Positions 25,224 to 49,788 of a stretch of DNA of 64,000 bases are shown here, piece after piece; position 1 is the stretch's first letter, and each line of letters starts with the position of its first letter. A program made the position numbers and the translations under genes. The notes below the pieces were generated by a model. It searched no databases and had not been told where the DNA came from. It saw only the letters and a program-made list of their open reading frames with translations. Location: NCBI GenBank assembly GCA_937903605.1, contig CALCZC010000007.1, forward strand, positions 37,982 to 101,981, given 5' to 3'. This DNA comes from an uncultured bacterium. GTDB taxonomy: Bacteria; Patescibacteriota; Patescibacteriia; Magasanikbacterales; GWA2-37-8.

Positions 25224-25370
25224 TCTCTTGACAATCCCTCTGTTTTATGTCAATATACGTTGTTTAGTCTCAATATCTGCGCTAAAATAAAAAATATAAA
25301 TAGCTCTTTAATAATTTTTTAATGTGTTATAAACTTTTTGCAAGGAGAGTGTCATGAAAAAGAACGCTTT
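25224..25370 (+). repeat. About 147-bp promoter/leader repeat (copy 1), identical to 27489-27635
   Basis: TCTCTTGACAATCCCTCTGTTTTATGTCAATATACGTTG...TTTTTGCAAGGAGAGTGTCATGAAAAAGAAC is shared verbatim upstream of lipoprotein genes B and C and includes a TTGACA box. Confidence 0.7.
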
Positions 25371-27488: not shown

Positions 27489-27635
27489 TCTCTTGACAAT
27501 CCCTCTGTTTTATGTCAATATACGTTGTTTAGTCTCAATATCTGCGCTAAAATAAAAAATATAAATAGCTCTTTAATAATTTTTTAATGTGTTATAAACT
27601 TTTTGCAAGGAGAGTGTCATGAAAAAGAACATCTT
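27489..27635 (+). repeat. About 147-bp promoter/leader repeat (copy 2)
   Basis: Identical to 25224-25370. Confidence 0.7.
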
Positions 27636-28143: not shown

Positions 28144-28177
28144 CAGGAGGTAAAAATGCACACAAATACAAGCTAAA

Positions 28178-28206
28178 AGCCAGGGTAAAACCCTGGCTCT
28201 TTTTTA
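28178..28206 (+). terminator. Rho-independent terminator after lipoprotein C
   Basis: AGCCAGGG TAAAA CCCTGGCT + TTTTTTT. Confidence 0.6.
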
Positions 28207-28256: not shown

Positions 28257-31200
28257 CTATTCTACTATTACATTTCCATTATATTCTATCCAGGGATACA
28301 TTGGAGAAGCAGGATTACCATTTTCAGGTACACAATCGCTTGCCGCACCATCTGCATAACACCCATAATTCCTTGTTCCATAAGGATTATTCGTAGTGCA
28401 TCTCCCACTACACCACCCCCAATTATCCAAAACCTGGACTCGCGGAGTACTAGTACTTGGAGTACTGGTATAAGTAAAGTGAAATTCGTATGGCGTGTTT
28501 TTGCAACCAGTACCATCTGTACCGCTCTTATTTCCAAAACTTCCCGGATCATTGTCTCCTTCTACAAAAGTAACACAGCGAGATGTTTGAACTGTCATCT
28601 TACCTCCAGCTTTCTTTTTTGCATCATAAAATACACAGTCTTCAGCTTTGTTACAAGGAATTTGATATTGATAGTTTGCTGGTTCATATTCACACCATCC
28701 AACGTGAGTACAAAGCGGTTTGCGGTTAGCAATACTGCGAGCTTCCAAAACTATTGCGGGGTCTTCGGTTTTTGTTTGATACATTATCCGACGTACCGGC
28801 ATTTGTGCCGGGTCAGCCCAAGCATAAAATTCCAGAGCCACATCGGAATTAGGACTTACGGTACAATTACCACCACTTAACAATTCATCACTACAATTTG
28901 ACTTATTAACCACTACTGTATTTAAAGCAAATGTTTTACAATCAGGTTTTCCACCTGCGGCTTTATAAGCCTCGCAATCCGCAGATCCGGGAGATAGTTG
29001 TATAGGCGCAGCAATCACTGGTGGTTTGATATTAACGTCACAACTCGAAGCCCTTTCAGGACTGGCACAATCTATTGGGGATTTAAAAGTTAATTTGGTT
29101 GGCTCCTTGAATTCATTTACCGAGCTGGTTGGGAAGACCCTGACAAACATATTTTTTAACATTTCCCCATATTTAAGGTCTTCTAAACTATAAATTCCAA
29201 ATCTAGGAAAACTAATTTCTGTTTCTATGTCATTTCTATTTTCATAAGAAATCAAGGGACTACGTACACGTTCACGTTCATCCAAATAAAAACCAAATTC
29301 ATTTGTTTTTCCCCCATAATATGTAGTCAAGAAAGGATTTGTCAAATCGGGAAAGGTAAAGTAGCCTGTCATATCCAACTTCGGTTCCTTGATGCCCTGA
29401 AAATAAGATCTATTTAAAGTATACGAATTGGTAGCAAAACGAGTGCTAGCCGTTTCATCTTTTGGAATATTGTAAACCGTATATGTTTGATCAGGATATA
29501 GCGTATCACCCATATTGGTTTTTCCTTTGATTAATCTCCAAGTAACTGGTTTGGCGTCAATGGCAATTTCAGCTGCTTGGGCACTTGCCCCTGGAGGACG
29601 ACTATTTTTTGAAACTTTGGCAAACTCTGTACAAGAACCATCAGAAAAATGTATGACAAAGAAAAAATTAATACCTGCTGTATGACCAGCATTATCATGT
29701 AAATCCAGTTGCGCACCGAGTAATTGATCATCGCTCCCCCAAATAATCCTTGCACCAAAACCATCAAAATCGGTTTCATATGAATTAGCTTCAAATTTTG
29801 TAGGACTTGTCGGCAAACCAAAAGTATCTTCTGTTTCGCTATAAAAAAACATTTTTTTCTTGTCCTTTGATTCAAAATAATCATACTCCTCACCTTCTCC
29901 TTTATTAGCCATAACCTTAACTTCCCAAATAGTTTTTCCATCCTTCTTGTAAGTACTTTTTCTTATTAATTGTTCTCTGTTATTACCATCTTTTAGCGGT
30001 ACTCCGAGTTTAGATTGCTTAATACAAACATCTTCCAAATCGTTTTCGCAATCATAACTTTTTTTATCGGTCGAATTTTTTTCTTTGGGCGAACAATCTA
30101 CTCCCTCTGTCAAATAACAACCGGTAATCTCTTTATTTTCAAAAGTAATAATGTTGTTGTTGAAAAATTGTTCTGTTGCTATTGGATTATCTGTACCATT
30201 CGCGACTATCCAGCCGGGAGACTCTCCTATACCAAAAAAATTAACCACGCCCTTTTTCTTCAATTCTTGGTAAGTTTTCCCCAAAACTAAATCTATTTTG
30301 ACCACATCTGTTTTCTTGATTTTTCCATTATTGTAAAAAGACGGTTCTGTAGCAGGAGTAAAAACACCAGTGAGTCTATCTTGAAATTCGCTGACTTTAT
30401 TATTATCAAGACTTAATGGACAATATACTCGAGTGTTATCTTTTTTTAGACTTTCAATAACTCCTTGTCTTAGAACAGGAAAAACCTTATTATCCATATC
30501 ATTGAAACATTTCAGTATATGAGCATTCGGTGGTAAATTATAAACCATGGCCGAAGAAACGTAGTTATGGTATGTAATCGTCTGAGAAGCTTGAACCATC
30601 CAATCAACTACCACACCTAGAGCTGCCACCCAACCGAATATAGAACTTACCGAAGCTGCAACAGCTGCCGCAATAGAGGCTGCAACCGCTCCGCCTATGG
30701 CTCCCGCTATACCTGTAATAAGGGCTGTCGTTCCAGCTACCATGCCAAAAGTTAAGGGGAACGAGCCACCATCAACCCAAGCAACACCTACGGCCGCATA
30801 TTTTTCCTCGTTGTTTATTGCTAATGCAGCATCTGTCATTTCTTGTGTTGAAGTAGAAAAACAAACATATTCTTCATCAATCTCATCTACGAGATATACT
30901 TCGCCAATCTTTCCTCCTGGTGTAGTTGTACAATACCCAGCATCACTCATTTGTTGAGTACATTTCAATGTATCCACTTGCATGTATGGCTTTGTACATC
31001 CTCCCCTAGTTAAATAAGCTGTTTCACACACACATCCTTTTTCCCATACCACCTGTTTGCTTGTAAAAAACTTATCACTTTTTACCATATTTATAGAAAA
31101 AGCATTGGCACCAGCTCCACCCAGATCAACGCAATTATCATTATCACCACCTAGATCACAATATTTGAAAACATCCACAGTGGTTGTCCTGCTTTCAACT

Positions 31201-34200
31201 TCTACATTTTTGGCATTATCGATCTCTCCTGCGCTAACAGGGTTACCTGCGTTAAAATAAAATTCTAAATTTGGCAAGGGTTTCAATTTTAACGGCTGAT
31301 TGGCAATACACATATATCTATCCTTGGTATCATTTCCTTCATAAGCGGCTTTTTTATCAATTATCCAAATATCCGGCGCACCAGGAGGAACCTCCACCGG
31401 CCACCAAGTCAAACAAGGATTTTGTTCTGGTTCCCCATAAAGCTTATACTTGGGATTTTTTTCTACACAATAACCTTGCCAACCTCTAACCTCGTTTACA
31501 CTTTTTTTATTAGCGCAAATTCCTCCTCCACATTGTTCGCTATTAACACACGGTGTTCCTTCGGTTTCAAGCGAACCGCCAATACAAATACTTTGGGATT
31601 CCCTTTCTGTCCCTAAAGGAAAATAAACAAACTGGTTATTATATTCTACTTTTTTATAACTACAATCACAGGAATCCTCTTTATTTACAGTGGTACAAAT
31701 TTCTAAAGCCTTATTTTTAACAAGATATGCGTAAGCACTCCTAGAAACAGGTGTCACTCCTTCGATTGTTTCAATAATACCCCATGGATCAAATGGACTG
31801 TTTTCTTCCGGATAACCACGACAAGAAAGTTCACCGGAAGTCCTGAGTTTGCCACGATTTCTTATCATATTATTTTCTATTCCACCGGTAATAGGATATA
31901 TACACTCTCCACCTAAACACAAACCTTCTTTATTTAAACCACAAGACTTTGTCATGGTATTATCAAACTTGTTACATTCCTGAACATTTCCTTGACCAGG
32001 GACAAAAATATTTCCACTATTTTCCCAATGGACCAAGCGCGGTTCAAAATAAACACCTTCTTCTCCACTACTTTGCACCAAATTACCCACATTATATGGT
32101 TCAACATCGTTCATACGAATATACCTTACTCCCAAAGACGGAATCTGATAAGAATTGTGTAAAGTATAACCACTTAATTCCGGATCTGCCCAATTAACAC
32201 CTCTGCTTCTATAATTACTGGTGGTTATTTTTGAATTTCTCCAAGCCCAGCTATCCAAAGTAACATTTTGATCGCAATTTCCTTCTGAAAACATACCTGG
32301 GAGAGATTTACTACACAAACCAAAGCTATAGCATCTGGCTTTATCATCTTCTACTTGATAATTGTTACAATACATCCAAAGATTGCATTCGCGATCACGG
32401 GCAACTTTTACCAAAATATTGGCGTCTCTAGTCTCTGTTTCTACCGGTGGCACCGGAGCTCCTTTGACCGCGTTGGAAGCCTCATAAGTAGCTTCTGTGT
32501 TATATTTTTTATTTGGATTATTTACTTGATCAAGTAATACACAACCATAATTCACACTCGCGCCATTGGGACATTCTTCGTTTATTTTTTCACTCAATTT
32601 CCCATTATCAATGAGATAGTAAGAATTGGCAGCCGGAATACAAGTATCCCCTTGTTGAGAGCTGCAATCTTTATCGTATTCACATTTCATCCCTGATATG
32701 CTGCATTTTTTAACCGAAACATCGTTATGATCGTCAAATCTAGAACAACCATCTTGAGAAGAAGGGCACTCGCCTACATAGCCTCTGTAGCTTGTCGTAT
32801 TACCAAACGGTGGCAAAGAAATGCCAAGACCGGTAGCACAAACCTGTGTTTCATCATCTTTTAACACCCATTTACCGATTTTGGAATTACCAACGGTTTC
32901 CTCTTTATAAACACAAACTTTTTTACCAATGTTTTCCGGATCTTTAAAATAATAATTTCCTGAACCGGAACGCCAAACATCACACCCTTCAGCTTCTTTG
33001 GTACAGAGAATTCCACGATTATTACTACCTGACGATTCATAGCGAGTAGGATCGTTGATAATATAGGCATCTTCAAAAACGTATGTATTGGTGACATTTT
33101 TATATCCTTTACCCATCAAAGTACAGCCAACATTGTCTTTGTTACAAAAATTATTTACATTATCATTTTTTCTAATTGTCAAATAAATAGGCGAACTTGT
33201 TGGAGAAGTCTGTTTATAAACCAAAACCGTTGAAGTGGTAAACGCAGCACCGGTTAAAGAGCTTTGTCCGATACCGGAAGCATTTACATAACAACCGCCT
33301 TCGCCATCGGGCACAATACAATCATAATTTATACCGTTGATTTGAATAGTTGGTTTATTGCCAACCTCCGGTTTTTGTAAACCTAGATTAAATATCTGCC
33401 AAGTGGTGCTGGCGATATTACTACCTTTATTGTAAGTATCAACCAAACGAGTACAACCAATAGCCCCATCTCTGCAAAGATAACTGAAATTGTGTAAATA
33501 AATATTATCTTTACTAAGCGGAGATTTGTAAGCACGACAACCCAAGGCAGAACCTGGGAGGTTATCTTTTTGATCAAGATCGCATGATGCAGGAACCGAA
33601 AGTTTATCTTTTACCAGATAAACTGTGTCGTCTATACTTTTTAACGAAACATTATCCAAGAAGATAACTCCTCCAGCTCTATTATAATCTAAAAATATTA
33701 TATGAGCCCCTTCACCAGATGGCACACTCCCGCTAATAGCGGGATTACTTATTACGAATTCATAACGACGCCAATTGTCTGTCAAATTAACAGTTCCAAC
33801 ATTGTAGGTAAAGCCATTACCCAAAGTGATATCCCATCTTTTTGTACCTTTGGCTAAGAAAGAAAGTGAATAAACTCCGGTATTTTTTATATCCGTATTA
33901 TAATGTCTAAAACCTCGAGTAGCAGTACCGCTATTTGCCGCCACTGTAACTTTCAAAGATTTACCAAAATTGGATAACGTTTCTTCTGACAAAGAGATGG
34001 TAGTACCATTGTCAGCACTTTCGCTTGTCTTCCACCAGCCCCTTTTTGTATTGGAAACCATATTAGTCAAACCGATACCAGAGTCAAAACTATATGTAGG
34101 GAAAATATCTCTTATATTATTACCAGTGTTACCTTGATATTTGCGACATGATACTTTGTCTTGAGAACAAATTTTACTTTCAGCCCCACCAGCAACCACA

Positions 34201-37187
34201 ATATTTTGAGGTAAACCGTTGTAAATACAAAAACCTGTTGCCGTATCATAAAAAACAACATTGTCATTGCTGGCTGCGTTTTTCAAACCATCAAAACCAC
34301 CTAGACAATTTGTTTTGTTGCCGGAAATATCATAAAATTCAGATTTTACCGCTCTATACGGCGTACATTTATCCGATACTACCACTGTCTTGCTAAAATA
34401 AGCGTGATAAACTATACCTTGATCATCACGAAAAGCCCGACAATCTCCGGAAATGTCTGTTGCAGCAGTAGTAGAATTACAAGGAGCCATACCTGATTTT
34501 TCCGCTGGATCACGAAAATATTGAGCCGGCTGTTCACCGTTTTTGAGCAAAGTATAACTCTTGAGTTTATAACCTCCCCCTTCTCTTCCTTCGTAAGTAT
34601 AAAAATTCTTTTGTCTATTTTGATCCGGAGTCATGCACAGCCGCAAATCGCTGTAATATTCTGTCTGCACATTGCCGCCGGCAGTCACATTGAGATTTAC
34701 AAAAGCACTACAACCCTCTTCCTCCGAATCACATGTTGCTTCAACTTTGGGAATAATATAAACCAAGTCGTTGCCGTTACTATATTTGGTTTTCATTTCT
34801 TTATAAGAATTGTACCCTTCGCAAACAGATGGACATTCATCGTTCATAACAATTCCCCCGCTAACGTTTGCACGTCTAATAAACTTACCAACTATAGTTT
34901 CTTCTTTTGAACCTTCAAAAACAGCTAGAGGTAACTTGGTATACTGATTACAGCCTTCTTCTTCCGGTAAACAAATTCCGGCGTAATTAGCACATTCTGC
35001 CGGATTAACCGGTTTGATTTGATTAAGTTCTGATAAAGTTCTCGGCCATTGGATACCATTGTCCGGATTACTGTCTTTATCATAACAGCGTAAATAGTCC
35101 GGGGCTTTTTTGATAAATAATTCCTGACCAATTTCTTTGGTATTGGAAGCGTTGGTAATAACTGAAAATACTCGACTACAGCCGGCATTCTCGGCTTTGC
35201 ATGTCAAAACTTGATTATTAAAAAAATAAGAATAATTATTGCGAAAAGCACCGATTCCATCGGGAGTAGTGCTTGACAAAGCAGTAATATTTATTGTTGG
35301 AGAATATTTTTCTTGCCATTGTCCTACATTATTTTTATAAGCGGTGAAAAAGGTACAGCCAGCATTTTGTTCACTACACCAAGTATTGTCCAAGGTCTTC
35401 TGTAAATAAGTGACATTTTTACCTTTGGAAGAAGTAAATGATTTGCATGTATCATATTGACTGTCGCAATAATCAGCATTAAAGCGCCAAATATTTTTTT
35501 CTTCTAAACAATAACCATAAGCATTACAATTTCCTTTACTGTCATAGCCTACGCAACTCTGTAAATCCGCGCATTCTTCTTGTCTTATGGATATATCATC
35601 GTCAATTGTTCGTCCAGTATAAACAATCGCTTTACATCTAGTTTTTGGCATTTTCAATATCCAGTTGGGATTTACCATTTTATAATACTTAGAAGATGGA
35701 TTGTGAAAACCAGCCAAAACCTCAGAAAGTTTTGGTGGTGTTCCGGTTGCAGTTGCGGCTAAAATTTCCATACCTAACGGCCAGACTCTGGCTTTGCGCA
35801 ATACTTTGATATTGTCATAACAATAGGCTGATTCATAACATCTATCCCCTTTTGAAGCTATGCTTTCATCGGTTTGAAGACCTATTATTTGATGATCATC
35901 TATTTTTTCATATTGCAACGCTTCAGCAATTGTTAGAGGTCGCCCGTTCATATCAACCTCGCGTAAATAATCAGCAAATTTTTCATCCAAAATACAATTT
36001 TCCGCTGTATCACTACTATCATGATTACAAGTTCTAAAAAGAGCGAGTAAATCGTAATTATCATCGGATTTATTTTTAGCAATCAAAAGATCAGCAAAAA
36101 TCATTGCTGCTTCTTGTCGGAAAGTAGAAGCTCTAGCATCTTCATAATATCCTTCGGCAGTATATTTACTCTCTACACAAGTATCTATAGCTAGACCACC
36201 TATTTTCAAATAACTCGGGACACATTTGATTTTTCCTAAACCAAACGGGAACATCCCTTTATTAACAAAATTATCCACCATGGTACCGGCAAAAGTATTG
36301 ATGAAAGTGGCTGCAGCATTTTTCAGAACCTGGATACTTCCTTTTGTCAAAGCCGCTCCCATATAGACAGCGGTAGTTTGTTTTTCCGATTCGGCTTTTG
36401 CCGCCGGACCCGAACCGCGCAGTGTATCTCTATTAACTTCTGCCGGAGTCAAAACATCTTTGGAAATCAAAGAACTGAGAGCCTTGGTTCCTCCGTCTGA
36501 AGTACGCTCAGCTTTGGCTGCTTCCTCGGCTTTGAGAGTATAATCATCAATTTTACCTTTAGCTGCCAATCCTATACCCATATCAGTATCTGTAATATCC
36601 AAAGAAGCATTAAAAGTTTTGGAAAAATTTTCTCCATTGGCTCCCCAATATTTACTCTTGATGCCTTCAGCACTATAATTATCACGTAATTGTTGCCAGG
36701 TACAAGACGGTTTTTCTAAATCTGAATAACCCAAGTGCAAACCCATTTTCAAAGCCAAATCTAACTTCACATCCGGTAAGGCGCAAAGATTGAAGCCTAT
36801 ACCCTGTCCAAAACTATCTAATGCCGTTCCCAAAGCATCGCTGGCCACACCGGCAAAATAATTTCCTACGCTTTTCCTGTGAAACAACGGTGATTGCCCC
36901 CAATTTCCCGAAGCCAAAGAAACCGCCAAATCATAAGAAACTTTATTCAACATATAATCAACTCCTTTTACCACACCCAGCATTACCGCATCTAGAAGAT
37001 TATTCTTTATTTTGGTTAAGTTTTTTTCCAATTGTTCTCTGATAGTTTGTCCGGCTTGTTGGCTTTCAACCCCAGGAGCCGCGACCGTAAGCTGAGCTTT
37101 GGCTGAAGAAAAAGGTATAAGAGAAAAACAAAAAATAAGCAGAAGAAAAATTGCTATCAGCTTATTTATATTATTAAAAAATTTCAT
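28257..37187 (-). CDS. Giant secreted Cys-rich surface protein (2976 aa) with an internal Gly/Ala-rich two-TM hairpin and the conserved C-terminal NWGWC module
   Basis: Signal peptide MKFFNNINKLIAIFLLLIFCFSLIPFSSAKA. Many Cys throughout. Hydrophobic GSFPLTFGMVAGTTALITGIAGAIGGAVAASIAAAVAASVSSIFGWVAALGVVVDW (about nt 30600-30770). C-terminus PRVQVLDNWGWCSGRCTTNNPYGTRNYGCYADGAASDCVPENGNPASPMYPWIEYNGNVIVE. Confidence 0.7.
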   Translation of the reverse strand: MKFFNNINKLIAIFLLLIFCFSLIPFSSAKAQLTVAAPGVESQQAGQTIREQLEKNLTKIKNNLLDAVMLGVVKGVDYMLNKVSYDLAVSLASGNWGQSPLFHRKSVGNYFAGVASDALGTALDSFGQGIGFNLCALPDVKLDLALKMGLHLGYSDLEKPSCTWQQLRDNYSAEGIKSKYWGANGENFSKTFNASLDITDTDMGIGLAAKGKIDDYTLKAEEAAKAERTSDGGTKALSSLISKDVLTPAEVNRDTLRGSGPAAKAESEKQTTAVYMGAALTKGSIQVLKNAAATFINTFAGTMVDNFVNKGMFPFGLGKIKCVPSYLKIGGLAIDTCVESKYTAEGYYEDARASTFRQEAAMIFADLLIAKNKSDDNYDLLALFRTCNHDSSDTAENCILDEKFADYLREVDMNGRPLTIAEALQYEKIDDHQIIGLQTDESIASKGDRCYESAYCYDNIKVLRKARVWPLGMEILAATATGTPPKLSEVLAGFHNPSSKYYKMVNPNWILKMPKTRCKAIVYTGRTIDDDISIRQEECADLQSCVGYDSKGNCNAYGYCLEEKNIWRFNADYCDSQYDTCKSFTSSKGKNVTYLQKTLDNTWCSEQNAGCTFFTAYKNNVGQWQEKYSPTINITALSSTTPDGIGAFRNNYSYFFNNQVLTCKAENAGCSRVFSVITNASNTKEIGQELFIKKAPDYLRCYDKDSNPDNGIQWPRTLSELNQIKPVNPAECANYAGICLPEEEGCNQYTKLPLAVFEGSKEETIVGKFIRRANVSGGIVMNDECPSVCEGYNSYKEMKTKYSNGNDLVYIIPKVEATCDSEEEGCSAFVNLNVTAGGNVQTEYYSDLRLCMTPDQNRQKNFYTYEGREGGGYKLKSYTLLKNGEQPAQYFRDPAEKSGMAPCNSTTAATDISGDCRAFRDDQGIVYHAYFSKTVVVSDKCTPYRAVKSEFYDISGNKTNCLGGFDGLKNAASNDNVVFYDTATGFCIYNGLPQNIVVAGGAESKICSQDKVSCRKYQGNTGNNIRDIFPTYSFDSGIGLTNMVSNTKRGWWKTSESADNGTTISLSEETLSNFGKSLKVTVAANSGTATRGFRHYNTDIKNTGVYSLSFLAKGTKRWDITLGNGFTYNVGTVNLTDNWRRYEFVISNPAISGSVPSGEGAHIIFLDYNRAGGVIFLDNVSLKSIDDTVYLVKDKLSVPASCDLDQKDNLPGSALGCRAYKSPLSKDNIYLHNFSYLCRDGAIGCTRLVDTYNKGSNIASTTWQIFNLGLQKPEVGNKPTIQINGINYDCIVPDGEGGCYVNASGIGQSSLTGAAFTTSTVLVYKQTSPTSSPIYLTIRKNDNVNNFCNKDNVGCTLMGKGYKNVTNTYVFEDAYIINDPTRYESSGSNNRGILCTKEAEGCDVWRSGSGNYYFKDPENIGKKVCVYKEETVGNSKIGKWVLKDDETQVCATGLGISLPPFGNTTSYRGYVGECPSSQDGCSRFDDHNDVSVKKCSISGMKCEYDKDCSSQQGDTCIPAANSYYLIDNGKLSEKINEECPNGASVNYGCVLLDQVNNPNKKYNTEATYEASNAVKGAPVPPVETETRDANILVKVARDRECNLWMYCNNYQVEDDKARCYSFGLCSKSLPGMFSEGNCDQNVTLDSWAWRNSKITTSNYRSRGVNWADPELSGYTLHNSYQIPSLGVRYIRMNDVEPYNVGNLVQSSGEEGVYFEPRLVHWENSGNIFVPGQGNVQECNKFDNTMTKSCGLNKEGLCLGGECIYPITGGIENNMIRNRGKLRTSGELSCRGYPEENSPFDPWGIIETIEGVTPVSRSAYAYLVKNKALEICTTVNKEDSCDCSYKKVEYNNQFVYFPLGTERESQSICIGGSLETEGTPCVNSEQCGGGICANKKSVNEVRGWQGYCVEKNPKYKLYGEPEQNPCLTWWPVEVPPGAPDIWIIDKKAAYEGNDTKDRYMCIANQPLKLKPLPNLEFYFNAGNPVSAGEIDNAKNVEVESRTTTVDVFKYCDLGGDNDNCVDLGGAGANAFSINMVKSDKFFTSKQVVWEKGCVCETAYLTRGGCTKPYMQVDTLKCTQQMSDAGYCTTTPGGKIGEVYLVDEIDEEYVCFSTSTQEMTDAALAINNEEKYAAVGVAWVDGGSFPLTFGMVAGTTALITGIAGAIGGAVAASIAAAVAASVSSIFGWVAALGVVVDWMVQASQTITYHNYVSSAMVYNLPPNAHILKCFNDMDNKVFPVLRQGVIESLKKDNTRVYCPLSLDNNKVSEFQDRLTGVFTPATEPSFYNNGKIKKTDVVKIDLVLGKTYQELKKKGVVNFFGIGESPGWIVANGTDNPIATEQFFNNNIITFENKEITGCYLTEGVDCSPKEKNSTDKKSYDCENDLEDVCIKQSKLGVPLKDGNNREQLIRKSTYKKDGKTIWEVKVMANKGEGEEYDYFESKDKKKMFFYSETEDTFGLPTSPTKFEANSYETDFDGFGARIIWGSDDQLLGAQLDLHDNAGHTAGINFFFVIHFSDGSCTEFAKVSKNSRPPGASAQAAEIAIDAKPVTWRLIKGKTNMGDTLYPDQTYTVYNIPKDETASTRFATNSYTLNRSYFQGIKEPKLDMTGYFTFPDLTNPFLTTYYGGKTNEFGFYLDERERVRSPLISYENRNDIETEISFPRFGIYSLEDLKYGEMLKNMFVRVFPTSSVNEFKEPTKLTFKSPIDCASPERASSCDVNIKPPVIAAPIQLSPGSADCEAYKAAGGKPDCKTFALNTVVVNKSNCSDELLSGGNCTVSPNSDVALEFYAWADPAQMPVRRIMYQTKTEDPAIVLEARSIANRKPLCTHVGWCEYEPANYQYQIPCNKAEDCVFYDAKKKAGGKMTVQTSRCVTFVEGDNDPGSFGNKSGTDGTGCKNTPYEFHFTYTSTPSTSTPRVQVLDNWGWCSGRCTTNNPYGTRNYGCYADGAASDCVPENGNPASPMYPWIEYNGNVIVE

Positions 37188-37284: not shown

Positions 37285-38268
37285 TTATATTCCCCATTCA
37301 AACTTCTCCGTCGCTTCATTGTAATAATACAGTTCTTTGATTTTGGAATCTCCATATTTATCCGCGGTTTTTTCTAATACTTCAAAGACGCCTTCTGTGT
37401 CTATAATCTCACCTGTTTCATCTTTGGGAAAAAATTGAAGTATTTTGGATTTGATTTCAGAGTAAGATGGTGGGTTTTGAGTCATAGGTTTTGTCTCAGT
37501 TTTCGGAAGGTTGTTTTCCGACTTTTTTTCAATTTTTGGTTTTATTTTTTTTATCAACGGATCGATTTTTTCTTGAAGTAAAATATGATATTCTTCTACG
37601 GTTTTTAAACTATCGGCAACTTCCGGGTGAAACGCTTTGTCCAACTCTTTGAGCACCATCTCTTTTTCCACGGTCAAAATATTTTTGATAAATATTATAT
37701 AATTTTGTAAAATTTTATCTCTATCAAAAACATAATATTTATCCAAAAGTTCAATGTCGGGACAGAAAATAACAGGCTTGAGTAAAATTTTCAACCCCTC
37801 TACATCGCTTTCATTTTTGATTTTATCTTTACAAATATCCAAAATATCGGAAAAAAAATAGTTTTTACTTCCCATCTTGGCAATTATGGCTTTGGAGTCT
37901 CGTAGCGCTTGTTTGGTTTTTTCATATACTTCTACTTTTTCTATCAAATCATAAACCGGAGAAGATAAAAACATCAATAAATCAAACCATGTATCATTAC
38001 CGAGAAGCAAAGCGATATGGAAATGGTTAGAAAAAATCTTTATAAACTCCTCTGTTTTATAACCACCGAGTTTTTGCCAAACCAAAAAAGTATACCAACG
38101 TTGATAACTGGCCAAATCTTCAAATTGCGTTTGCGCGTCAACTTGCACCTTCCCCAACATTGTTTCCAAGAAAATTTCCTTATCTTCAGGGTTATTCAAA
38201 AATTCGTCGAATTTTTTCTCAATCTCCGCAATACCTTCTTCAGTTAATTTGTTTGGATCGTCAATCAT
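37285..38268 (-). CDS. Hypothetical soluble protein (327 aa), co-oriented between the multi-TM protein and the giant protein
   Basis: Uninterrupted ORF with no TM and no recognisable motifs. The 17-nt gap to the upstream gene suggests an operon. Confidence 0.45.
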   Translation of the reverse strand: MIDDPNKLTEEGIAEIEKKFDEFLNNPEDKEIFLETMLGKVQVDAQTQFEDLASYQRWYTFLVWQKLGGYKTEEFIKIFSNHFHIALLLGNDTWFDLLMFLSSPVYDLIEKVEVYEKTKQALRDSKAIIAKMGSKNYFFSDILDICKDKIKNESDVEGLKILLKPVIFCPDIELLDKYYVFDRDKILQNYIIFIKNILTVEKEMVLKELDKAFHPEVADSLKTVEEYHILLQEKIDPLIKKIKPKIEKKSENNLPKTETKPMTQNPPSYSEIKSKILQFFPKDETGEIIDTEGVFEVLEKTADKYGDSKIKELYYYNEATEKFEWGI

Positions 38269-38285
38269 AAAAATAGTTAGAAAAA

Positions 38286-41200
38286 TTATGATCTTTTAGC
38301 TTTATCTATTTTGTCTGTCAAGATTTTAATTCTTTGTTCTAGGACCTTTTTACCATCGCCTTCTTTTACTGATTTTAAGAGAGTATTAACGAGTTTTTCA
38401 AATTGATTAACATTACTTTTATTGACAGCGGCTTCGTTTATAGAGGCAAAGATAGTGGTAAAATCTTTATTACCCAGAGCCTGACCACTTTTTCCTTTAA
38501 ATATAGAATCTACATATTTTAAAACTTCATCCCCTATACCACACATTATACCGTCTGCATTTACACTCCCCAACGTAGTTAATTTATCGGCTTTTCCTCT
38601 TTCTATAGCGTAAGAAAAATCATTACTCGGTTTTTCTCGCCAAGCATATATAAGTTTACCGGTGGCTCTATCAATTTCCTCTGATATTAAACCAACACCG
38701 GTAAAATCACCGCTCATAGAGGCCTTTTTAAAATTATTAGCAAGTGTACCCAAAAAAGATTGGTATTCTCCTTCGCTAGAAAATCTATCTCTCAGCTTAT
38801 CTTTTCCTTCTTCTTCCTTACCTTTCTCAACATAGCTTCCTAACAGTTGTGTGAGTACTGCCCTATCCCTGTTTTCCATATTTATTTCTCCTTCTTTCGC
38901 AAAAAACCCGGTTTCATTTAAACAGGCCACTCTAGTATCACGAGAATTTTCTCCACCAACACTGGCATTATATGAAGCCAAAGCTGCCTTTCCTCTGTAT
39001 AATTTAGCAAGCTCCTTTTTTAAATCTTTATAGCCTTGAGTGTTAATATCTGTCGCTTTACTTATCGCCATTTCAACTTTTGCTATCGCTTTAACTTGTC
39101 CTTTTTCTGCTGCTTCTAGTTGTTTAGGGGTCAGGTTACTTAAAATTTCAGCATCTTTTTTAATAGCAAGATTATTAGCTGACGCTTCCATGGCATCCCC
39201 ACGAACTGGGTCTCCTGAACGTCTATAAGCGTCTCCTGTGTCCTTAAGAGCAATTTGTTGCTTCTTTATTTCTTCGTCGCTTAATTCTATACCTTTACCC
39301 GCTATATCTCTTATCCTGGCAAATTCTTTATCTCCTGCAGCAATATCTTTATCCACTTTTTCCTTCCCTTCAATTCTAACATTTCCGGCTTGGGCTTTAA
39401 GACTTTCTATTTCGACTTCCAATTTTTCAGCTCCTTCTATTTTATCTATAGATAATTTTTCTAACCCTTTTAATTCGTCTTTATAATCTCTTAAAAAACC
39501 TTCACTCATTGCTCTACCTTCGTCGGTTATGGTAGGATCTTTTAAAAAATCTTCTAACTCTTTAATTTGCTCTTTCTTTTTTCCTATCTGATTGTCAATA
39601 TTATTATATTCTTCTTGGACACCGGACAATTCTCCTTCTTTTTTTCCTGCTTCCTCCTCGAGTCTTTTGGCTTCTTTTTCTATTGGAACCATTCCTTCGG
39701 TTCTTTGTTTTTCTATTCCTTCTCTCCACTTTTTTTCTGACTCGTCTTGTTCGCCTTTGACTAACTGTTCTCGCTGTTTGTTGATTTGATTCGCCTCACG
39801 TTGTTTGGTGTTTAATTCATCAATAATTATTTTATGAGCATCATTTTGTCTAAATTTACCTTCAACTTCTTGAAGGATAGCCGGCATACCGGCTTCTTTT
39901 AATTTTTCTCTTTGCTGTAAATTATATTTTAGCAATTCTGTTTCTTTTTTAGCTTCAAAAGTAGCTAGAGTACCGACTTGACTATCAAAAATTCCTTTTC
40001 TTGTGTCTAATTGTTTTTTTCTAGCCGCTCTCAATTTTTCACGTTCCATATATTTATCCGCTCTATTGGCCCAGAAACCTTTCTCGCCTGTTAATTTTTC
40101 TTTATCGTAACTTCTTTCCAAAAAAGCCAGTCCCCTTAGTTGAGCCATATCTTTTAGATCACCCCCTATATTAACGGCTTCGTTTTTGATTCCGCCCCAA
40201 GTTTTTTTAACTCCCCAACCAAGAGCAGCAACGCCGGACGCTGTCATCGCTACTTTCTTGGCAGTGCTCATCGCCGAGCTCAAAGCTCCGGCACCACGTA
40301 CGCCAAGTTGTTGAGTTTTTTCAACACCAACCATGAGTAAAGCTATGGCAATAGCAAAGGAAGCCATAGTCGGCCATTCTAACATTTCATTGATGCCAGA
40401 GCTAGCTCCCTCAACAGAAAAAACTTGTGTTACAGCACCTTCGTCTCTGGTAAAATTTTTATTTTCAAATTCTTCATTATATATTTCTCCGCTACCGGCG
40501 ACAGCAAACGATAACCAAAAGAAAAAAGCTAAAATCGGCCCGGCTAAAACGTGGTTGTTAAATTCTTTCCACCACTCAGTAGCATATTTTTGGGTTGCTG
40601 GTAAAACACTACTGATAAAAGCTACAGGAGATAATATGATAAGCACCCACAATACCACCACCCTGTACAACATGATAACCATATAGGCTCCCAAAACAAA
40701 AAAACTGATAACACTAAAAAATACAGTTGCTACTGCAGCTATCAAATAACTGATATCATTTATTTTTTCAGCTTCAGCTTGTGTTGATAACAACCAACCT
40801 TTTTGCAATTTCAAGGCATTTATAACATTACCTCCAGCAGTAGCCGCAAAACCATTGACAAAAGTCATGGTAAAAACCTGAGCCGCATCTATAATTACCC
40901 CGCAAATCAAGCGGCTAAAATTTACCAATACGGCAGCAAAAACTAATTTAACTAAAAGTTTTTTCCATTCATATTGTTCCAAACCAAGTACTGTGCCAAA
41001 AGCAATAACCAATAAAATCAAAACAAAAAACATATTTACCACATCACGCACTAATACCCATCCTAAAATAACTGTTTTTGAATTTATAAAATCATTATAA
41101 CTGGCAATAGTAATAAAAAAATTGGTAGCAAATATAGTCAAGCCGATAAACAGCTTGGCCATAGCCCAACAAATCAAAGTGATAAGCGAACCAATTCCCG

Positions 41201-41363
41201 CCGCAACCGTATCTGTTACCCAACCAAAAGCAGCGCTAGCTTCATTAGTGTTGATTACAAAAAATAATAAAAAGAATAACAAAAACAATGAGAGAAACTT
41301 TCTTCTATCCCCTCTTGTTTTAAAATTCAAAATATTCTTAATTTTTCCCAAAAAAGACGACAT
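38286..41363 (-). CDS. Multi-pass membrane protein (signal peptide + about 6-7 TM) with an about 700-aa charged coiled-coil C-terminal region. VirB6/TrbL-like architecture (hypothesis only)
   Basis: N-terminal hydrophobic helices (GIGSLITLICWAMAKLFIGLTIFATNFFITIA, FVLILLVIAFGTVLGL, LVFAAVLVNFSRLICGVIIDAAQVF, YLIAAVATVFFSVISFFVLGAYMVIMLYRVVVLWVLIILSPVAFI, GPILAFFFWLSFAVAG). Then E/K/R-rich heptad repeats to the C-terminus. Confidence 0.55.
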   Translation of the reverse strand: MSSFLGKIKNILNFKTRGDRRKFLSLFLLFFLLFFVINTNEASAAFGWVTDTVAAGIGSLITLICWAMAKLFIGLTIFATNFFITIASYNDFINSKTVILGWVLVRDVVNMFFVLILLVIAFGTVLGLEQYEWKKLLVKLVFAAVLVNFSRLICGVIIDAAQVFTMTFVNGFAATAGGNVINALKLQKGWLLSTQAEAEKINDISYLIAAVATVFFSVISFFVLGAYMVIMLYRVVVLWVLIILSPVAFISSVLPATQKYATEWWKEFNNHVLAGPILAFFFWLSFAVAGSGEIYNEEFENKNFTRDEGAVTQVFSVEGASSGINEMLEWPTMASFAIAIALLMVGVEKTQQLGVRGAGALSSAMSTAKKVAMTASGVAALGWGVKKTWGGIKNEAVNIGGDLKDMAQLRGLAFLERSYDKEKLTGEKGFWANRADKYMEREKLRAARKKQLDTRKGIFDSQVGTLATFEAKKETELLKYNLQQREKLKEAGMPAILQEVEGKFRQNDAHKIIIDELNTKQREANQINKQREQLVKGEQDESEKKWREGIEKQRTEGMVPIEKEAKRLEEEAGKKEGELSGVQEEYNNIDNQIGKKKEQIKELEDFLKDPTITDEGRAMSEGFLRDYKDELKGLEKLSIDKIEGAEKLEVEIESLKAQAGNVRIEGKEKVDKDIAAGDKEFARIRDIAGKGIELSDEEIKKQQIALKDTGDAYRRSGDPVRGDAMEASANNLAIKKDAEILSNLTPKQLEAAEKGQVKAIAKVEMAISKATDINTQGYKDLKKELAKLYRGKAALASYNASVGGENSRDTRVACLNETGFFAKEGEINMENRDRAVLTQLLGSYVEKGKEEEGKDKLRDRFSSEGEYQSFLGTLANNFKKASMSGDFTGVGLISEEIDRATGKLIYAWREKPSNDFSYAIERGKADKLTTLGSVNADGIMCGIGDEVLKYVDSIFKGKSGQALGNKDFTTIFASINEAAVNKSNVNQFEKLVNTLLKSVKEGDGKKVLEQRIKILTDKIDKAKRS

Positions 41364-41645
41364 GGTATATGAAAATTAGTCGCCTAAACCACTTCCAAAA
41401 ACAAAATTTTGAAAGTCATTTTGGACAAATATATTATAACACCTTTTGGCTAAAATTACAAAATAAAAACTATCCACAGGGCACTAGAAGCTTCGCTTGC
41501 GTACCCTGCAGGCAGGCCATAAATTATTATAATAGTTAGAAAATAAAAAAATTACAGAGATTTAAATTTATTTAAAAATCAAAATAGCAAAATTAATACT
41601 ACTTAATACAAGATATTTTTGGCTAATATCAGCAAAAATAGACTA

Positions 41646-46495: not shown

Positions 46496-46622
46496 ACAGT
46501 AAAAAGTTGAAAGTTAAAAGTTGTAAAGTTATAAGTCAAAAAATTCACCCGAGAGTGAATTTTTTTTATTATTAATATTTTAATCCGATACTTTCTACTT
46601 TTAACTTTTCACTTTTAACTTA
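46496..46622. mobile_element. Cargo-less MITE-like element of the AAAGTYAAAA inverted-repeat family (contains the terminator of the upstream gene)
   Basis: Left arm AAAAGTTGAAAGTTAAAAGTTGTAAAGTTATAAGTCAAAA. Right arm CTTTCTACTTTTAACTTTTCACTTTTAACTT is its imperfect reverse complement. Internal hairpin AATTCACCCGAGAGTGAATTTTTTTT. Confidence 0.4.
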
Positions 46623-48215
46623 TATCAGACTTCTCCCATTCATCTCTTCCGGTTGCGACAATCCCAACAAAGCCAGCACTGTCGGCGCTACATCAGCCAG
46701 CATGCCAACCGGTGAAAGCAGACTTAAATCCCCTTCCGGCGGATCTCCGGCCGGACCGGCTTGACCCAAGAAATCATTACTGACTATGTAAAGCGGCACC
46801 GGATTGGTAGAATGTTCTTTGTCCATCCCGCCGGTTTGCAAATTAAAAACTTCCTCGGCGTTACCATGATCGGCAGTCATCACCAAAACTCCGTTTTTCA
46901 ATAAAATTTTATCTACGATACTACCTAGACATTTATCAATGGTTTCCACGGCTTTTATGGTGGCTTCCAAATTACCGGTATGTCCAACCATATCGCCATT
47001 GGCAAAATTTACCGCAATAAAATCATGTTTTCCTTCATCTATCACTTCTAAAATCTTTTTAGTAATTTCATAAGCCGCCATTTCCGGTACATCCTCAAAC
47101 GAAGAAACTTTGGGAGACGGAGCGATAAACCTATCTTCCCCAGGATAGGGTTCTTCCACCATTCCGTTTAGAAAAAAGGTGATGTGAGCATATTTTGTTG
47201 TTTCTGCAATATGATATTGTTTTAGACCAGCTCGACTGACCACTTCCGCCAAGACATTACGCAATACTATCGGTTTATAAGCTATTTCTACTGGTAGTTC
47301 TTTTTCATATTCGGTCATGGTCGCAAAAAACAAATTATTTATTTTTTTTCTGGGAAATTTATCAAAACTCGGCAGAACAAAAGCTTTGGTCAATTGTCTG
47401 GCTCGGTCAGGACGAAAATTATAAAAAATGACTGCATCGTTATCTTCTATCAACGCTACTGGTTTTTCTTTTTCTGTAATCAAAGTAGGAATAAATTCTT
47501 CATCGTAATTTTTTTCAACATAAGAAGATTCAATTGCTTCAAGCGGATCTTTGTTTTTCCTTTGGGCCACACCCTCAACCAGCATCTTATAAGTTTTTTC
47601 AGTTCTATCCCATTGATTATCTCTATCCATAGCATAATAGCGACCGCTCAAACTGGCGATTTTACCTATTTTAAATTCTTTTATTTTTTCTTGCAATTGT
47701 TGTGTAAAAACCTTGCCGGAATTATAGATAGAATCTCGCCCGTCCAAAAAAGTTTGAATAAAGACATTATTTTTCAAGCCGTTTTCTTTTGCCATTTTCA
47801 AAAGAGCATATAAATGATCCGGACTACTATGGGTTTTACCGCCAATGAGCCCCATCAAATGCAGTTTTGAATTATGTTTTTTCACATGTTCTATCGCTTG
47901 TAAAAAAACCGGATTTTGAAAAAACCTGCCGCTCTCTATCTCATTATCAATACGCGGCAAAGTTTGATAATAAACTCGACCAGCTCCAATATTTAAATGT
48001 CCAACCTCGGAATTTCCCATTTCACCAAAACTCAAACCAACATCCGTGCCGGAGGCTTGTAAAGTAGAAACGGGATATGATTTGCAAAGTTGATCTAGAG
48101 TTGGAGTTTTGGCCAAAGCAATAGCATTACCCGGACCCTTCGGCGCCACTCCCCAGCCGTCTAATATCACTAATACTACTGGTCGATATTTATACATAGA
48201 AAATTTAAAATTCAA
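46620..48215 (-). CDS. gpmI: 2,3-bisphosphoglycerate-independent phosphoglycerate mutase (copy 1)
   Basis: VVLVILDGWG, catalytic-Ser region MGNSEVGHLNIGAGRV, ADHGN metal site, size about 525 aa. Start probably the internal MYKYRPVV. Confidence 0.85.
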   Translation of the reverse strand: MNFKFSMYKYRPVVLVILDGWGVAPKGPGNAIALAKTPTLDQLCKSYPVSTLQASGTDVGLSFGEMGNSEVGHLNIGAGRVYYQTLPRIDNEIESGRFFQNPVFLQAIEHVKKHNSKLHLMGLIGGKTHSSPDHLYALLKMAKENGLKNNVFIQTFLDGRDSIYNSGKVFTQQLQEKIKEFKIGKIASLSGRYYAMDRDNQWDRTEKTYKMLVEGVAQRKNKDPLEAIESSYVEKNYDEEFIPTLITEKEKPVALIEDNDAVIFYNFRPDRARQLTKAFVLPSFDKFPRKKINNLFFATMTEYEKELPVEIAYKPIVLRNVLAEVVSRAGLKQYHIAETTKYAHITFFLNGMVEEPYPGEDRFIAPSPKVSSFEDVPEMAAYEITKKILEVIDEGKHDFIAVNFANGDMVGHTGNLEATIKAVETIDKCLGSIVDKILLKNGVLVMTADHGNAEEVFNLQTGGMDKEHSTNPVPLYIVSNDFLGQAGPAGDPPEGDLSLLSPVGMLADVAPTVLALLGLSQPEEMNGRSLI

Positions 48216-48225
48216 AATTCAAAAT

Positions 48226-49788
48226 TTATAACAGACTTTTTCCTGTCATTTCTTTGGGTTTTTTGAGACCCATCAATTTCAAAATTGTTGGAGCAACATC
48301 AGCCAATTTACCTTTTGATAATCTTTTTTTCTTTTTATAATATTCTTTTCCGGCAATGATAAATGGTACGGGATTGTTGGAATGCTCTGTATCAATTTCT
48401 CCGGTTTTGATATTTATCATTTCTTCCACATTACCGTGATCGGCGGTGATCAAAACAGTTATTTTATTTTTTTCCGCCGCTTTTAATAATCTGTTTACTT
48501 CTTCGTCAATATTTTTAACCGCCAAAATTCCAGCCTGTAAATCCCCAGTATGGGCCACCATGTCTGGATTGGGATAATTGACACAAATAAAATTATATTC
48601 TTTTTTTTCTATTTCTTTGATTATAACGTCGGTCATTTCTTTGGAGCTCATTTGAGGACAAGTGGCATAATTATCCACTACCTTACTTTCTATTTTGATC
48701 CAACGTTCATCACAAAAATGTCTGGCATAACCGCCATTAAAAAAATAAGTAACATGAGCATATTTTTCAGTCTCGGAAATATATAGTTGTTTGAGCGGAC
48801 ACAAAACCTGCGGTAAACTATTTATCACATCGCGAGACGGAAAAGCGGTCAAAACTCCTGGTAGATCCGGCCCAAAATCAGACATAGCCACAAAACGAAT
48901 ATTTTTGGGAATTCTGGTACGACGAAAAGCGTTGGGGTTTATTTTTTCAAAATCAGGTTGGACGAAAGCTTTAGTCAGTTGTCGCGCCCTATCACTTCTC
49001 AAATTAAAAAAGAAGATGGCATCATTATCATTAATTTTGGCAATGGGTTTACCTTTTTCTAAAATCACGGTCGGTTTAATAAATTCGTCGGTTTCTCCGG
49101 AATTATAAGCCTGGGTCAGTGCATCTGTAGGTGAATTTGCTGTTCGACAACTTCGACATTCTACCAAAGCATCGTAGGCCTTTTTGATTCTCTCCCAATT
49201 TTTACCTCTATCCATGCCATAAAAACGACCGAGAATAGTGGCAATTTTTTCATTTCCATGAAATCTTTCTTTCAAAAGTTTTAGGTGTTGAGGGGCGTTA
49301 TGTTGTCCAGAATCGCGCCCATCAGTAAAAAGGTGTAAATAAACTTTTTGAATTTTTTCTTGATGAAAATAATCAAGCAATGCATATAAATGTTCGGGAC
49401 AAGAATGAGCGCTGTTATGATTGGAAAGTAAACCGACAAGGTGAACAGCAGTATTATATTTTCTGACATGATGTAGGACTTGGTCAAAAGCCGGATTTTT
49501 GAAAAAGGTACCGTCATCAATAGCGTCACTGATATAGACCGCGTCTTGTTTTACTACTCGACCGGCACCCAAATTCATGTGTCCGGCTTCACTGTTCCCG
49601 TCTTCATTTTTAAAAAGACCCACAGCTTCTCCACTAGCTTCAAGTTTTGTATTTGGATAATCTTTTAACCAACGAAAATAATTCGGGGCATTCTCAGGCG
49701 TCACCGGATTTCCTTTGTTTTTTAATTCGGCAATTCCCCATCCATCCATTATAACCAACATTACCGAATTTTTATTATTCTTTTGCAT
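48226..49788 (-). CDS. gpmI: 2,3-bisphosphoglycerate-independent phosphoglycerate mutase (copy 2, tandem paralog)
   Basis: [32 protein letters not shown]. 520 aa. About 35-40% identical to copy 1 by eye. Confidence 0.85.

What the first reader, a model, noticed from the sequence alone, without database searches (positions are those of the whole stretch)
37285..41363. Multi-TM protein with a 700-aa coiled-coil tail in an operon with the giant protein
The 1025-aa protein has a signal peptide, about 6 TM helices and a long E/K/R-rich coiled coil. The next gene starts 17 nt after it, and the giant gene follows 97 nt after that. The TM-domain-plus-extended-tail architecture recalls VirB6/TrbL-type channel proteins of type IV systems. 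Saccharibacteria use these for host interaction. No VirB4/VirD4 ATPase is present in the window.
Basis: inference. Interest (0 to 1): 0.5.

Follow-up and report, generated by a model that had tools for sequence, protein, structure and literature searches.

The report
Extended VirB6-like secretion channel gene
[quoted passage not shown] It sits in a three-gene module with two conserved partners, a 327-aa protein and a 2976-aa cysteine-rich secreted giant, that here lies apart from the usual VirB3/VirB4 genes.

Summary
The ORFs, the 17-nt and 97-nt gaps and the absence of VirB4/VirD4 from the window are confirmed.

The 1025-aa protein gets no Pfam hit itself, but four independent lines place it in VirB6/TrbL:
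- 8 of 38 family members hit Pfam TrbL.
- A profile-profile comparison against proteobacterial VirB6 gives 86% probability, P 4.7e-6.
- The five best PDB fold matches of its AlphaFold model are all TrwI/VirB6 chains of R388.
- In 49 of 51 related loci with enough flank, a PrgI(VirB3), TraC-like and VirB4 block lies 5.6-11 kb downstream.

The '700-aa coiled coil' is overstated. The tail is a lineage-specific charged linker (aa ~376-695) plus a conserved ~320-aa C-terminal domain that is a separate gene in some relatives.

The 327-aa protein and the giant (secreted, 3.6% Cys) are conserved members of the same locus in Magasanikbacteria-like genomes. The giant normally lies just upstream of virB6. 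The window and its closest relatives have a rearranged, VirB4-less trio.

The organism is not a Saccharibacterium. Whether VirB4 exists elsewhere in this genome could not be tested. VirB6 in Patescibacteria is published. I found no report of the giant partner in the papers searched.

The parts
41433..41461 (-). Promoter-like site (TTGTAA-17-TATAAT, extended -10 TG), about 70 nt upstream of the virB6-like start codon
   Evidence: Consensus scan; sequence read. A consensus match only; function not shown.
38286..41363 (-). Extended VirB6/TrbL-like gene, 1025 aa
   Evidence: ORF. Homologs and their Pfam TrbL hits. HHalign against VirB6. Fold match to TrwI/VirB6. Synteny with VirB3/VirB4 in relatives.
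41232..41363 (-). aa 1-44: basic N-terminus, hydrophobic core and A-S-A motif (probable signal peptide or first membrane helix)
   Evidence: Sequence. AxA is conserved in the family consensus. Hydropathy. Cleavage is inferred.
40239..41231 (-). aa 45-375: polytopic VirB6/TrbL core of about 7 helices. Invariant positions include R234, P246 and the N148-F149-S150 motif.
   Evidence: AF2 model with pLDDT mostly 80-97 here. Invariant columns. Region aligned to TrbL and TrwI.
39279..40238 (-). aa 376-695: highly charged, helix-prone linker specific to this lineage
   Evidence: Composition and heptad score. Iterated HMM search found no homolog outside near-identical contigs.
38316..39278 (-). aa 696-1016: conserved C-terminal domain of extended VirB6 proteins, encoded as a separate gene in some relatives
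   Evidence: Iterated HMM search. The domain ends about 22 VirB6-like proteins of 920-1300 aa. It is a stand-alone ORF in L005 (9376-10503) and L006 (11706-12317). tblastn.
37285..38268 (-). 327-aa soluble partner protein ('W327' family). No TM segment. Mostly helical, with a small, highly conserved C-terminal alpha/beta domain.
28257..37187 (-). Giant 2976-aa secreted or surface protein with an N-terminal signal-like segment and 3.6% Cys
   Evidence: Sequence and hydropathy. About 32% identical over ~2000 aa to giants next to virB6-like genes in other genomes. The family has 1324 cluster representatives, 983 at E<=1e-30, mostly 2500-3250 aa. No Pfam hit, even when scanned in pieces.
28263..28646 (-). 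aa 2848-2975 of the giant: conserved Cys-rich C-terminal domain (motif PRVQVLDNWGWCSGRC ... YNGxVIVE)
   Evidence: The HMM hits the C-terminus of every giant found beside virB6-like genes.
28175..28201 (-). Terminator-like hairpin (12 bp stem, 6 GC pairs) followed by a T-rich tail, about 55 nt after the giant's stop codon
   Evidence: Consensus scan only.

Best explanation
The 1025-aa protein is an 'extended VirB6'. It is the polytopic membrane-platform or channel subunit of the Gram-positive-like (MPF_FATA-related) type IV secretion system that is widespread in Patescibacteria.

Architecture:
- A probable signal peptide.
- A ~330-aa VirB6/TrbL helical core, which in solved systems forms the pentameric base of the translocation stalk in the cytoplasmic membrane.
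- A ~650-aa tail made of a fast-evolving charged spacer and a conserved ~320-aa terminal domain. The tail is predicted to be cytoplasmic.

It is co-transcribed with two proteins that belong to the same conserved locus in Magasanikbacteria-like genomes. One is a soluble 327-aa protein, likely a cytoplasmic partner of the tail or of the ATPase complex. The other is a Sec-exported, cysteine-rich ~3000-aa giant, which I propose is the extracellular host-contact or adhesin part of the machine.

The usual gene order is giant, virB6, W327, X, PrgI/VirB3, TraC-like, VirB4. In this lineage it has been rearranged to virB6, W327, giant, and the trio is separated from the VirB3/VirB4 block. That block is presumably encoded elsewhere in the genome.

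Shown: homology, fold, synteny and locus membership. Inferred: tail topology, the roles of W327 and the giant, and the existence of VirB4 elsewhere.
For: Sequence family:
- 49 homologs were found, all from Patescibacteria.
- 8 of 38 hit Pfam TrbL and 2 hit TrbL_4, the only recurrent families.
- HHalign against VirB6 gives Prob 86.4%, P 4.7e-6, with a reversed control at 0.43.

Structure:
- The AF2 model's top five PDB matches are all TrwI/VirB6 chains: E 5e-3 to 1e-2, probability 0.98-1.0, target-normalised TM-score 0.32-0.47.

Context:
- Gene calls in L001, L004 and L005 show PrgI (PF12666), TraC-like (PF26593) and VirB4 (DUF87/AAA_10/P-loop_TraG) downstream of orthologs.
- 49 of 51 loci have VirB4 downstream, at a median 7.9 kb from the virB6 start. 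28 of 45 have the giant upstream. 44 of 64 have a W327-family ORF downstream.
- L036 shows the full order with a 1083-aa VirB6-like protein. L021 has a 1643-aa one.

Operon signals.

Tail topology: the N-terminus has 7 K/R, the last loop is acidic (8 D/E) and 8 K/R follow the last TM helix.

Literature:
- VirB6 homologs occur in Patescibacteria T4SS; 304 of 480 lie near virB4, and the gene is essential in Ca. Southlakia epibionticum (PMC12102498, PMC10633639).
- 'Extended VirB6' is a recognised architecture (PMC12857230, PMC7648143).
Against: - The window protein does not reach any Pfam or NCBIfam threshold on its own.
- The fold match is modest (TM 0.27-0.47, Foldseek E ~5e-3), and the HHalign match covers only 93 columns.
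- No VirB4, VirB3, TraC-like or pilin gene lies in the 64-kb window or in 10 kb on either side. The two closest relatives with long flanks also lack them nearby (L014, L015). A functional link to a T4SS ATPase in this genome is therefore unproven.
- The roles proposed for W327 and the giant rest on gene neighbourhood only. Neither has a recognisable domain or fold.
Confidence: 0.75

Rival explanations
1. Autonomous module. The VirB6-like protein, W327 and the giant have been uncoupled from the T4SS in this lineage. They work without VirB4, for example as a membrane platform that anchors or assembles the giant surface protein.
For: - The window, L012, L014 and L015 share the rearranged order virB6, W327, giant, with no VirB3/VirB4 within reach.
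- The arrangement and intact ORFs are kept across relatives only ~58% identical. This suggests selection on the trio as a unit.
- The giant has its own Sec-type signal, so it does not need a T4SS for export.
Against: - VirB4 is extremely conserved and near-universal in this group: about 8000 hits at E<=1e-100, and the 120 listed are 77-83% identical to the query. Loss would be unusual.
- Published data show many Patescibacteria virB6 genes lie away from virB4: 176 of 480 (PMC12102498).
- Only 84 kb of a contig of at least 301 kb was inspected.
Confidence: 0.15
2. The protein is a generic polytopic membrane protein with a coiled-coil tail, such as a cytoskeleton- or division-associated scaffold. 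Its resemblance to VirB6 is fortuitous.
For: - The protein has no direct Pfam hit.
- The tail is charged and helix-prone.
- A profile search of PDB sequences returned only coiled-coil noise.
- A bactofilin gene and the ScpAB genes occur elsewhere in the window.
Against: Four independent lines point to VirB6. Synteny with VirB3/VirB4 in 49 of 51 related loci cannot be chance.
Confidence: 0.03
3. The module is a decaying remnant of a disrupted T4SS locus and is no longer functional.
For: - The locus is rearranged.
- A 78-aa remnant of a giant-gene 3' end lies 2 kb downstream, next to AAA_14/DUF4143 ATPase genes.
Against: - All three ORFs are intact, at 1025, 327 and 2976 aa.
- They are identical on several independent contigs and samples.
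- Invariant family residues are retained.
- The same order is kept in relatives at ~58% identity.
Confidence: 0.05

Closest known systems
VirB6/TrbL family (Pfam PF04610, TrbL_3 PF19590, TrbL_4 PF19597); solved example TrwI of plasmid R388 (PDB 7O3V, 8RT9, 8RTD)
   Same: - Polytopic helical membrane core.
- Shared signature region: window aa ~204-296 aligns with TrwI 139-231.
- Same fold by Foldseek.
- Orthologs are encoded with VirB3 and VirB4.
   Different: - Sequence identity to TrwI is only 12-17%, and there is no direct Pfam hit.
- It has a probable cleaved signal peptide and a ~650-aa C-terminal extension.
- It belongs to a monoderm system without VirB7/9/10.
- In this genome it is not next to VirB4.
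Patescibacteria (CPR) T4SS related to MPF_FATA (Quinonero-Coronel et al. 2025, PMC12102498; Wang et al. 2023, PMC10633639)
   Same: Orthologous loci carry exactly the published core: VirB6, PrgI/VirB3, a TrsD/TraC-like protein and VirB4. No relaxase or coupling protein lies nearby.
   Different: - That survey reports no adhesins and does not mention giant proteins. Here a ~2500-3200-aa Cys-rich secreted protein and a 327-aa protein are conserved locus members.
- The window represents a lineage in which this trio is detached from VirB3/VirB4.
'Extended VirB6' proteins: Rickettsiales VirB6 paralogs such as Anaplasma VirB6-4 (PMC7648143, PMC12857230). From my own knowledge, also TcpH of Clostridium perfringens pCW3 and F-plasmid TraG.
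   Same: A VirB6 transmembrane core followed by a large hydrophilic C-terminal region of variable length. Relatives here range from ~530 to 1643 aa.
   Different: - The tail sequence is unrelated to those extensions.
- It has a modular linker-plus-domain build, and the terminal domain occurs as a separate gene in some genomes.
- Its predicted cytoplasmic location is inferred only.
Giant genes next to secretion systems in Omnitrophota (West-Roberts et al. 2023 preprint, 10.1101/2023.11.21.568195) and giant surface proteins of Vampirococcus (PMC8080830)
   Same: A very large, exported protein encoded beside a secretion or pilus machine in a putative episymbiont or predator.
   Different: - A different phylum and a different secretion system (T2SS/T4P-like there).
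- No sequence relationship was tested.
- The giant here has no recognisable domains.

Membership tests
VirB6/TrbL | Polytopic inner-membrane protein with at least 5 hydrophobic helices | tested here: met
   Hydropathy finds 8 hydrophobic segments in aa 23-347. AF2 helices have pLDDT 80-97.
VirB6/TrbL | The protein itself scores above the family HMM threshold (Pfam PF04610, PF19590 or PF19597) | tested here: not met
   The full protein has no TrbL hit at E<=1. Residues 1-460 have no hit at E<=0.01. NCBIfam gives none.
VirB6/TrbL | Family-level (transitive or profile-profile) homology to VirB6/TrbL | tested here: met
   8 of 38 homologs hit TrbL (best E 2.3e-6; P0044 scores 28.0 bits against the gathering threshold of 25.9) and 2 hit TrbL_4. 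HHalign against a 9-sequence VirB6 alignment gives Prob 86.4%, P 4.7e-6, with a reversed control at P 0.43.
VirB6/TrbL | Fold similarity to a solved VirB6 (TrwI) | tested here: met
   Foldseek ranks 1-5 are all TrwI/VirB6 chains: E 4.7e-3 to 1.2e-2, probability 0.98-1.0, target-normalised TM-score 0.32-0.47, ~290 aligned columns. The match is moderate in strength but specific.
VirB6/TrbL | Encoded with the T4SS signature ATPase VirB4 (and VirB3) | tested here: not met
   Not met for this window: none in 64 kb plus 10 kb on each side. Met for orthologs: 49 of 51 loci. The rest of this genome could not be searched.
Extended VirB6 (architecture class) | VirB6 core plus a large hydrophilic C-proximal domain | tested here: met
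   The tail spans aa ~376-1025 and includes a conserved domain at aa 696-1016. Class definition taken from PMC12857230.
Patescibacteria MPF_FATA-like T4SS | VirB4 of the Patescibacteria clade together with PrgI/VirB3 and TrsD/TraC-like in the same genome | not testable with these tools
   Only 84 kb of the source contig could be read. A VirB4 homolog search listed just the top 120 of ~8000 hits, and none could be assigned to this genome.
Coiled-coil protein | Long continuous heptad-repeat region | tested here: inconclusive
   A crude heptad score lies ~4 SD above shuffles, but it is patchy, strongest at aa ~550-600 and 750-800. No dedicated predictor and no structure model of the tail were available.

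The most novel reading that the evidence does not exclude
The ~3000-aa cysteine-rich secreted giant is a genuine extracellular component of the Patescibacteria T4SS. Its family has at least 1300 clusters and no known domain. It would serve as the adhesin or host-contact structure that surveys have failed to find, docking on the VirB6 platform. VirB6, W327 and the giant would then form a separable sub-assembly that can be encoded apart from the VirB3/VirB4 motor, as in this window.
Probability: 0.35. Interest if true: 0.7.

Novelty: new variant of a known kind. Interest (0 to 1): 0.45.

Why it matters
The T4SS is essential for epibiotic growth in the one genetically tractable Patescibacterium. 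Its function, and the way it contacts the host, are unknown. This locus shows three things:
- Many CPR VirB6 proteins are too divergent for standard HMMs, yet can be recognised by profile, fold and synteny.
- In a large CPR clade the virB6 gene is consistently accompanied by a conserved soluble protein and by a giant Cys-rich exported protein. These are concrete candidates for the missing adhesin or extracellular part of the machine.
- This trio can be separated genomically from the ATPase block, which hints at a modular assembly.

The VirB6 assignment itself is not surprising to a specialist. The candidate partners are a useful, testable lead.

Tried and rejected
- A profile of the full-length family alignment against PDB sequences returned only coiled-coil noise from the tails.
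- Alignment A1 was too diverse for the search for related loci. It was redone with 14 closer sequences.
- I tried to locate this genome's VirB4 by matching 'longest_contig' values in a VirB4 homolog search. Only the top 120 of ~8000 hits are listed, and none came from the 301,463-, 562,946- or 906,154-bp contigs. The one near-match, P0184 (301,125 bp), belongs to an unrelated genome.
- Pfam at E<=10 on four pieces of the giant found nothing, including a stretch that looked like a carbohydrate-binding module by eye. That idea was dropped.
- The afdb50 fold library was unavailable.
- R388 was not found under accession BR000038 but was found as NC_028464.
- The 154-aa ORFs upstream of virB6 in L005 and L035 first looked like stand-alone copies of the giant's C-terminal domain. 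They lack a signal peptide and start at TTG, so they are more likely remnants of truncated giant genes.
- The internal hydrophobic hairpin of the giant (aa ~2150-2198) is not conserved in the family, so it is not treated as a defining feature.
Full report
**The observation**

The finding spans two minus-strand ORFs, 38286..41363 (1025 aa) and 37285..38268 (327 aa). A 2976-aa ORF follows at 28257..37187. The gaps are 17 and 97 nt, as stated.

A promoter-like site with an extended -10 element lies about 70 nt upstream of the first gene. The only strong hairpin-plus-T-run on that strand lies just after the giant's stop codon. A three-gene operon is therefore the simplest reading.

The surrounding genes are housekeeping: glycolysis, aminoacyl-tRNA synthetases, ScpAB, EF-Ts and ribosomal proteins. 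None encodes a VirB4/VirD4-type ATPase. tblastn with VirB4, PrgI and TraC-like queries finds only noise. The same holds for 10 kb beyond each end of the window, read on the 301-kb source contig.

**Anatomy of the 1025-aa protein**

The N-terminus is basic (7 K/R in 22 residues). A 19-residue hydrophobic core and an A-S-A motif follow. An AxA motif is conserved at this position in the family consensus. A cleaved signal peptide is plausible, but this is inferred.

Residues ~47-375 hold about seven membrane helices, modelled by AlphaFold2 at pLDDT 80-97.

The tail is about 650 residues and 37% D/E/K/R. Its heptad signal exceeds shuffles by ~4 SD but is patchy. Iterated HMM searches over all fetched loci split the tail into two parts:
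- A linker (aa ~376-695) with no homolog outside near-identical contigs.
- A conserved ~320-aa domain (aa 696-1016). It ends about 22 other VirB6-like proteins of 920-1300 aa. In L005 and L006 it is a separate gene directly after a shorter VirB6-like gene.

'A 700-aa coiled coil' is therefore an over-simplification.

The charge distribution is an acidic last loop followed by a K/R-rich stretch after the last helix. It suggests that the tail is cytoplasmic (inference).

**Identity of the membrane domain**

The protein has no Pfam or NCBIfam hit. A search with residues 1-442 found 49 homologs, all 'hypothetical' proteins of Patescibacteria. Four independent lines tie this family to VirB6/TrbL:
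- Eight of 38 members individually hit Pfam TrbL and two hit TrbL_4. These are the only recurrent families. The matched regions map to window residues ~135-344.
- I fetched TrwI of R388 and eight other annotated MPF_T VirB6 proteins from plasmids. HHalign of the 38-sequence CPR profile against this alignment gives 86.4% probability, P 4.7e-6 over 93 columns (window ~204-296 against TrwI 139-231). The reversed control gives P 0.43.
- Foldseek of the AF2 model against 350,542 PDB chains puts five TrwI/VirB6 chains of the R388 T4SS at ranks 1-5, with E 5e-3 to 1e-2 and target-normalised TM-score 0.32-0.47. The match is modest but specific.
- The gene neighbourhood, described next.

**Neighbourhood in relatives**

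Gene calls around three homologs show PrgI/VirB3 (PF12666), a TraC-like protein (PF26593) and a VirB4 ATPase (DUF87/AAA_10/P-loop_TraG) a few genes downstream.

A scan of GTDB representative genomes found 575 relatives. The best 80 are almost all Magasanikbacteria-like. Among them:
- 49 of 51 loci with at least 10.5 kb of downstream sequence carry VirB4, at a median 7.9 kb from the virB6-like start.
- 28 of 45 loci with at least 8 kb upstream carry a homolog of the window's giant immediately upstream on the same strand.
- 44 of 64 carry a homolog of the 327-aa protein downstream, in most cases directly after virB6.

L036 shows the canonical order: giant (2536 aa), VirB6-like (1083 aa), W327 (326 aa), a 396-aa protein, PrgI, TraC-like, VirB4. 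L021 has a 1643-aa VirB6-like protein.

Long tails are thus normal in this clade, and their length varies from about 530 to 1643 aa.

**What is special about the window**

The window and its three closest relatives (L012, L014, L015; ~58% identity) have the order virB6-like, W327, giant, with no PrgI/TraC-like/VirB4 within reach. L014 and L015 are the only 2 exceptions among the 51 loci. L015 also shares the window's upstream eno-pgm-pgm neighbourhood.

Of all genes in the canonical loci, only three families have counterparts in the window, plus one remnant.

The trio has therefore been rearranged and detached from the VirB3/VirB4 block in this lineage. The ORFs are intact, and their order is conserved across relatives that are only ~58% identical.

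I could not determine whether VirB4 is encoded elsewhere in this genome. Published data show that about a third of detected Patescibacteria virB6 genes lie away from virB4 (PMC12102498). I therefore consider a split system the most likely case.

**The partners**

The giant has an N-terminal signal-like segment and 3.6% Cys. It has no Pfam domain, even when scanned in pieces. Its conserved ~130-aa Cys-rich C-terminal domain ends every giant next to virB6.

A full-library search with the giant's first 1200 residues finds 1324 cluster representatives, 983 at E<=1e-30. Nearly all are 2500-3250 aa long and colinear with the query. This is a large, unannotated family.

The giant carries its own Sec-type signal and is rich in cysteine. 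I propose that it is an extracellular host-contact or adhesin component associated with the T4SS. This rests on gene neighbourhood only.

**Comparison with what is known**

T4SS of the MPF_FATA type, including VirB6 homologs, are documented across Patescibacteria. They are essential in Ca. Southlakia epibionticum (PMC12102498, PMC10633639, PMC11665869).

'Extended VirB6' proteins are a recognised class whose extra domains have no known role (PMC12857230, PMC7648143).

The 2025 survey reports no adhesins and does not mention giant proteins. A search for Magasanikbacteria together with type IV secretion returned no papers. Giant genes next to secretion systems have been described in Omnitrophota. 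Giant surface proteins have been described in Vampirococcus, without a T4SS link.

The organism here is Magasanikbacteria-like, not a Saccharibacterium.

**Verdict**

The protein is a divergent extended VirB6, that is, a member of a known kind. The conserved association with W327 and a giant Cys-rich exported protein, and the detachment of this trio from VirB3/VirB4, make the locus a new variant with a testable lead. Interest is moderate.

Noticed in passing
window 26027-26263 (-): A 78-aa ORF matches the last ~60 residues of the giant (PRVQVLDNWGWCSGRC ... YNGSVIVE; HMM E 3e-22). It starts right after the stop codon of an AAA_14/DUF4143 ATPase gene. It looks like the 3' remnant of a second or ancestral giant gene and may mark the rearrangement that split the locus.
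   Followed up: partly
window 26272-27396 (-) and 23936-25141 (-): Two paralogous AAA_14 + DUF4143 ATPase genes lie immediately downstream of the giant gene. Short plus-strand ORFs of unknown function are interspersed (27619-28143, 25354-25851, 23030-23656). They may be linked to the rearrangement.
   Followed up: no
L005 6679-7143 and L035 9188-9652: Identical 154-aa ORFs directly upstream of virB6-like genes match only the giant's C-terminal domain. They lack a signal peptide, so they are probably remnants of truncated giant genes. Giant genes next to virB6 appear to be disrupted repeatedly.
   Followed up: partly
L005 9376-10503; L006 11706-12317: The conserved C-terminal domain of the extended VirB6 tail is encoded as a separate gene right after a shorter VirB6-like gene. 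This is gene fission or fusion within the family.
   Followed up: partly
window 46620-48215 (-) and 48226-49788 (-): Two tandem paralogs of cofactor-independent phosphoglycerate mutase (iPGM_N + Metalloenzyme) lie next to the enolase gene. The same tandem appears to be present in relative L015, by ORF size and order.
   Followed up: no
window 17957-18331 (-); also L010 11356-11739: Genes for '23S rRNA intervening sequence protein' (PF05635) occur as free-standing genes. One lies between tyrS and argS; a second lies just outside the window. Another sits next to the T4SS locus in L001.
   Followed up: no
L010 12081-15509 and 16923-20168 (just beyond the window's low-coordinate end on the source contig): Two more large ORFs (1142 aa and 1081 aa) have no Pfam hit on record.
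   Followed up: no
canonical loci, e.g. L036 14048-15238, L004 5823-7025, L005 12441-13823: A conserved 396-460-aa protein of unknown function always sits between W327 and PrgI in the T4SS loci. It has no counterpart in the window. It could be the VirB8-like component that surveys have failed to find.
   Followed up: no
(VirB4 homologs): VirB4 of this clade is remarkably conserved: about 8000 hits at E<=1e-100, and the 120 listed are 77-83% identical to the query. The neighbouring VirB6-like proteins share only 40-50% identity in the core and have unalignable tails.
   Followed up: no
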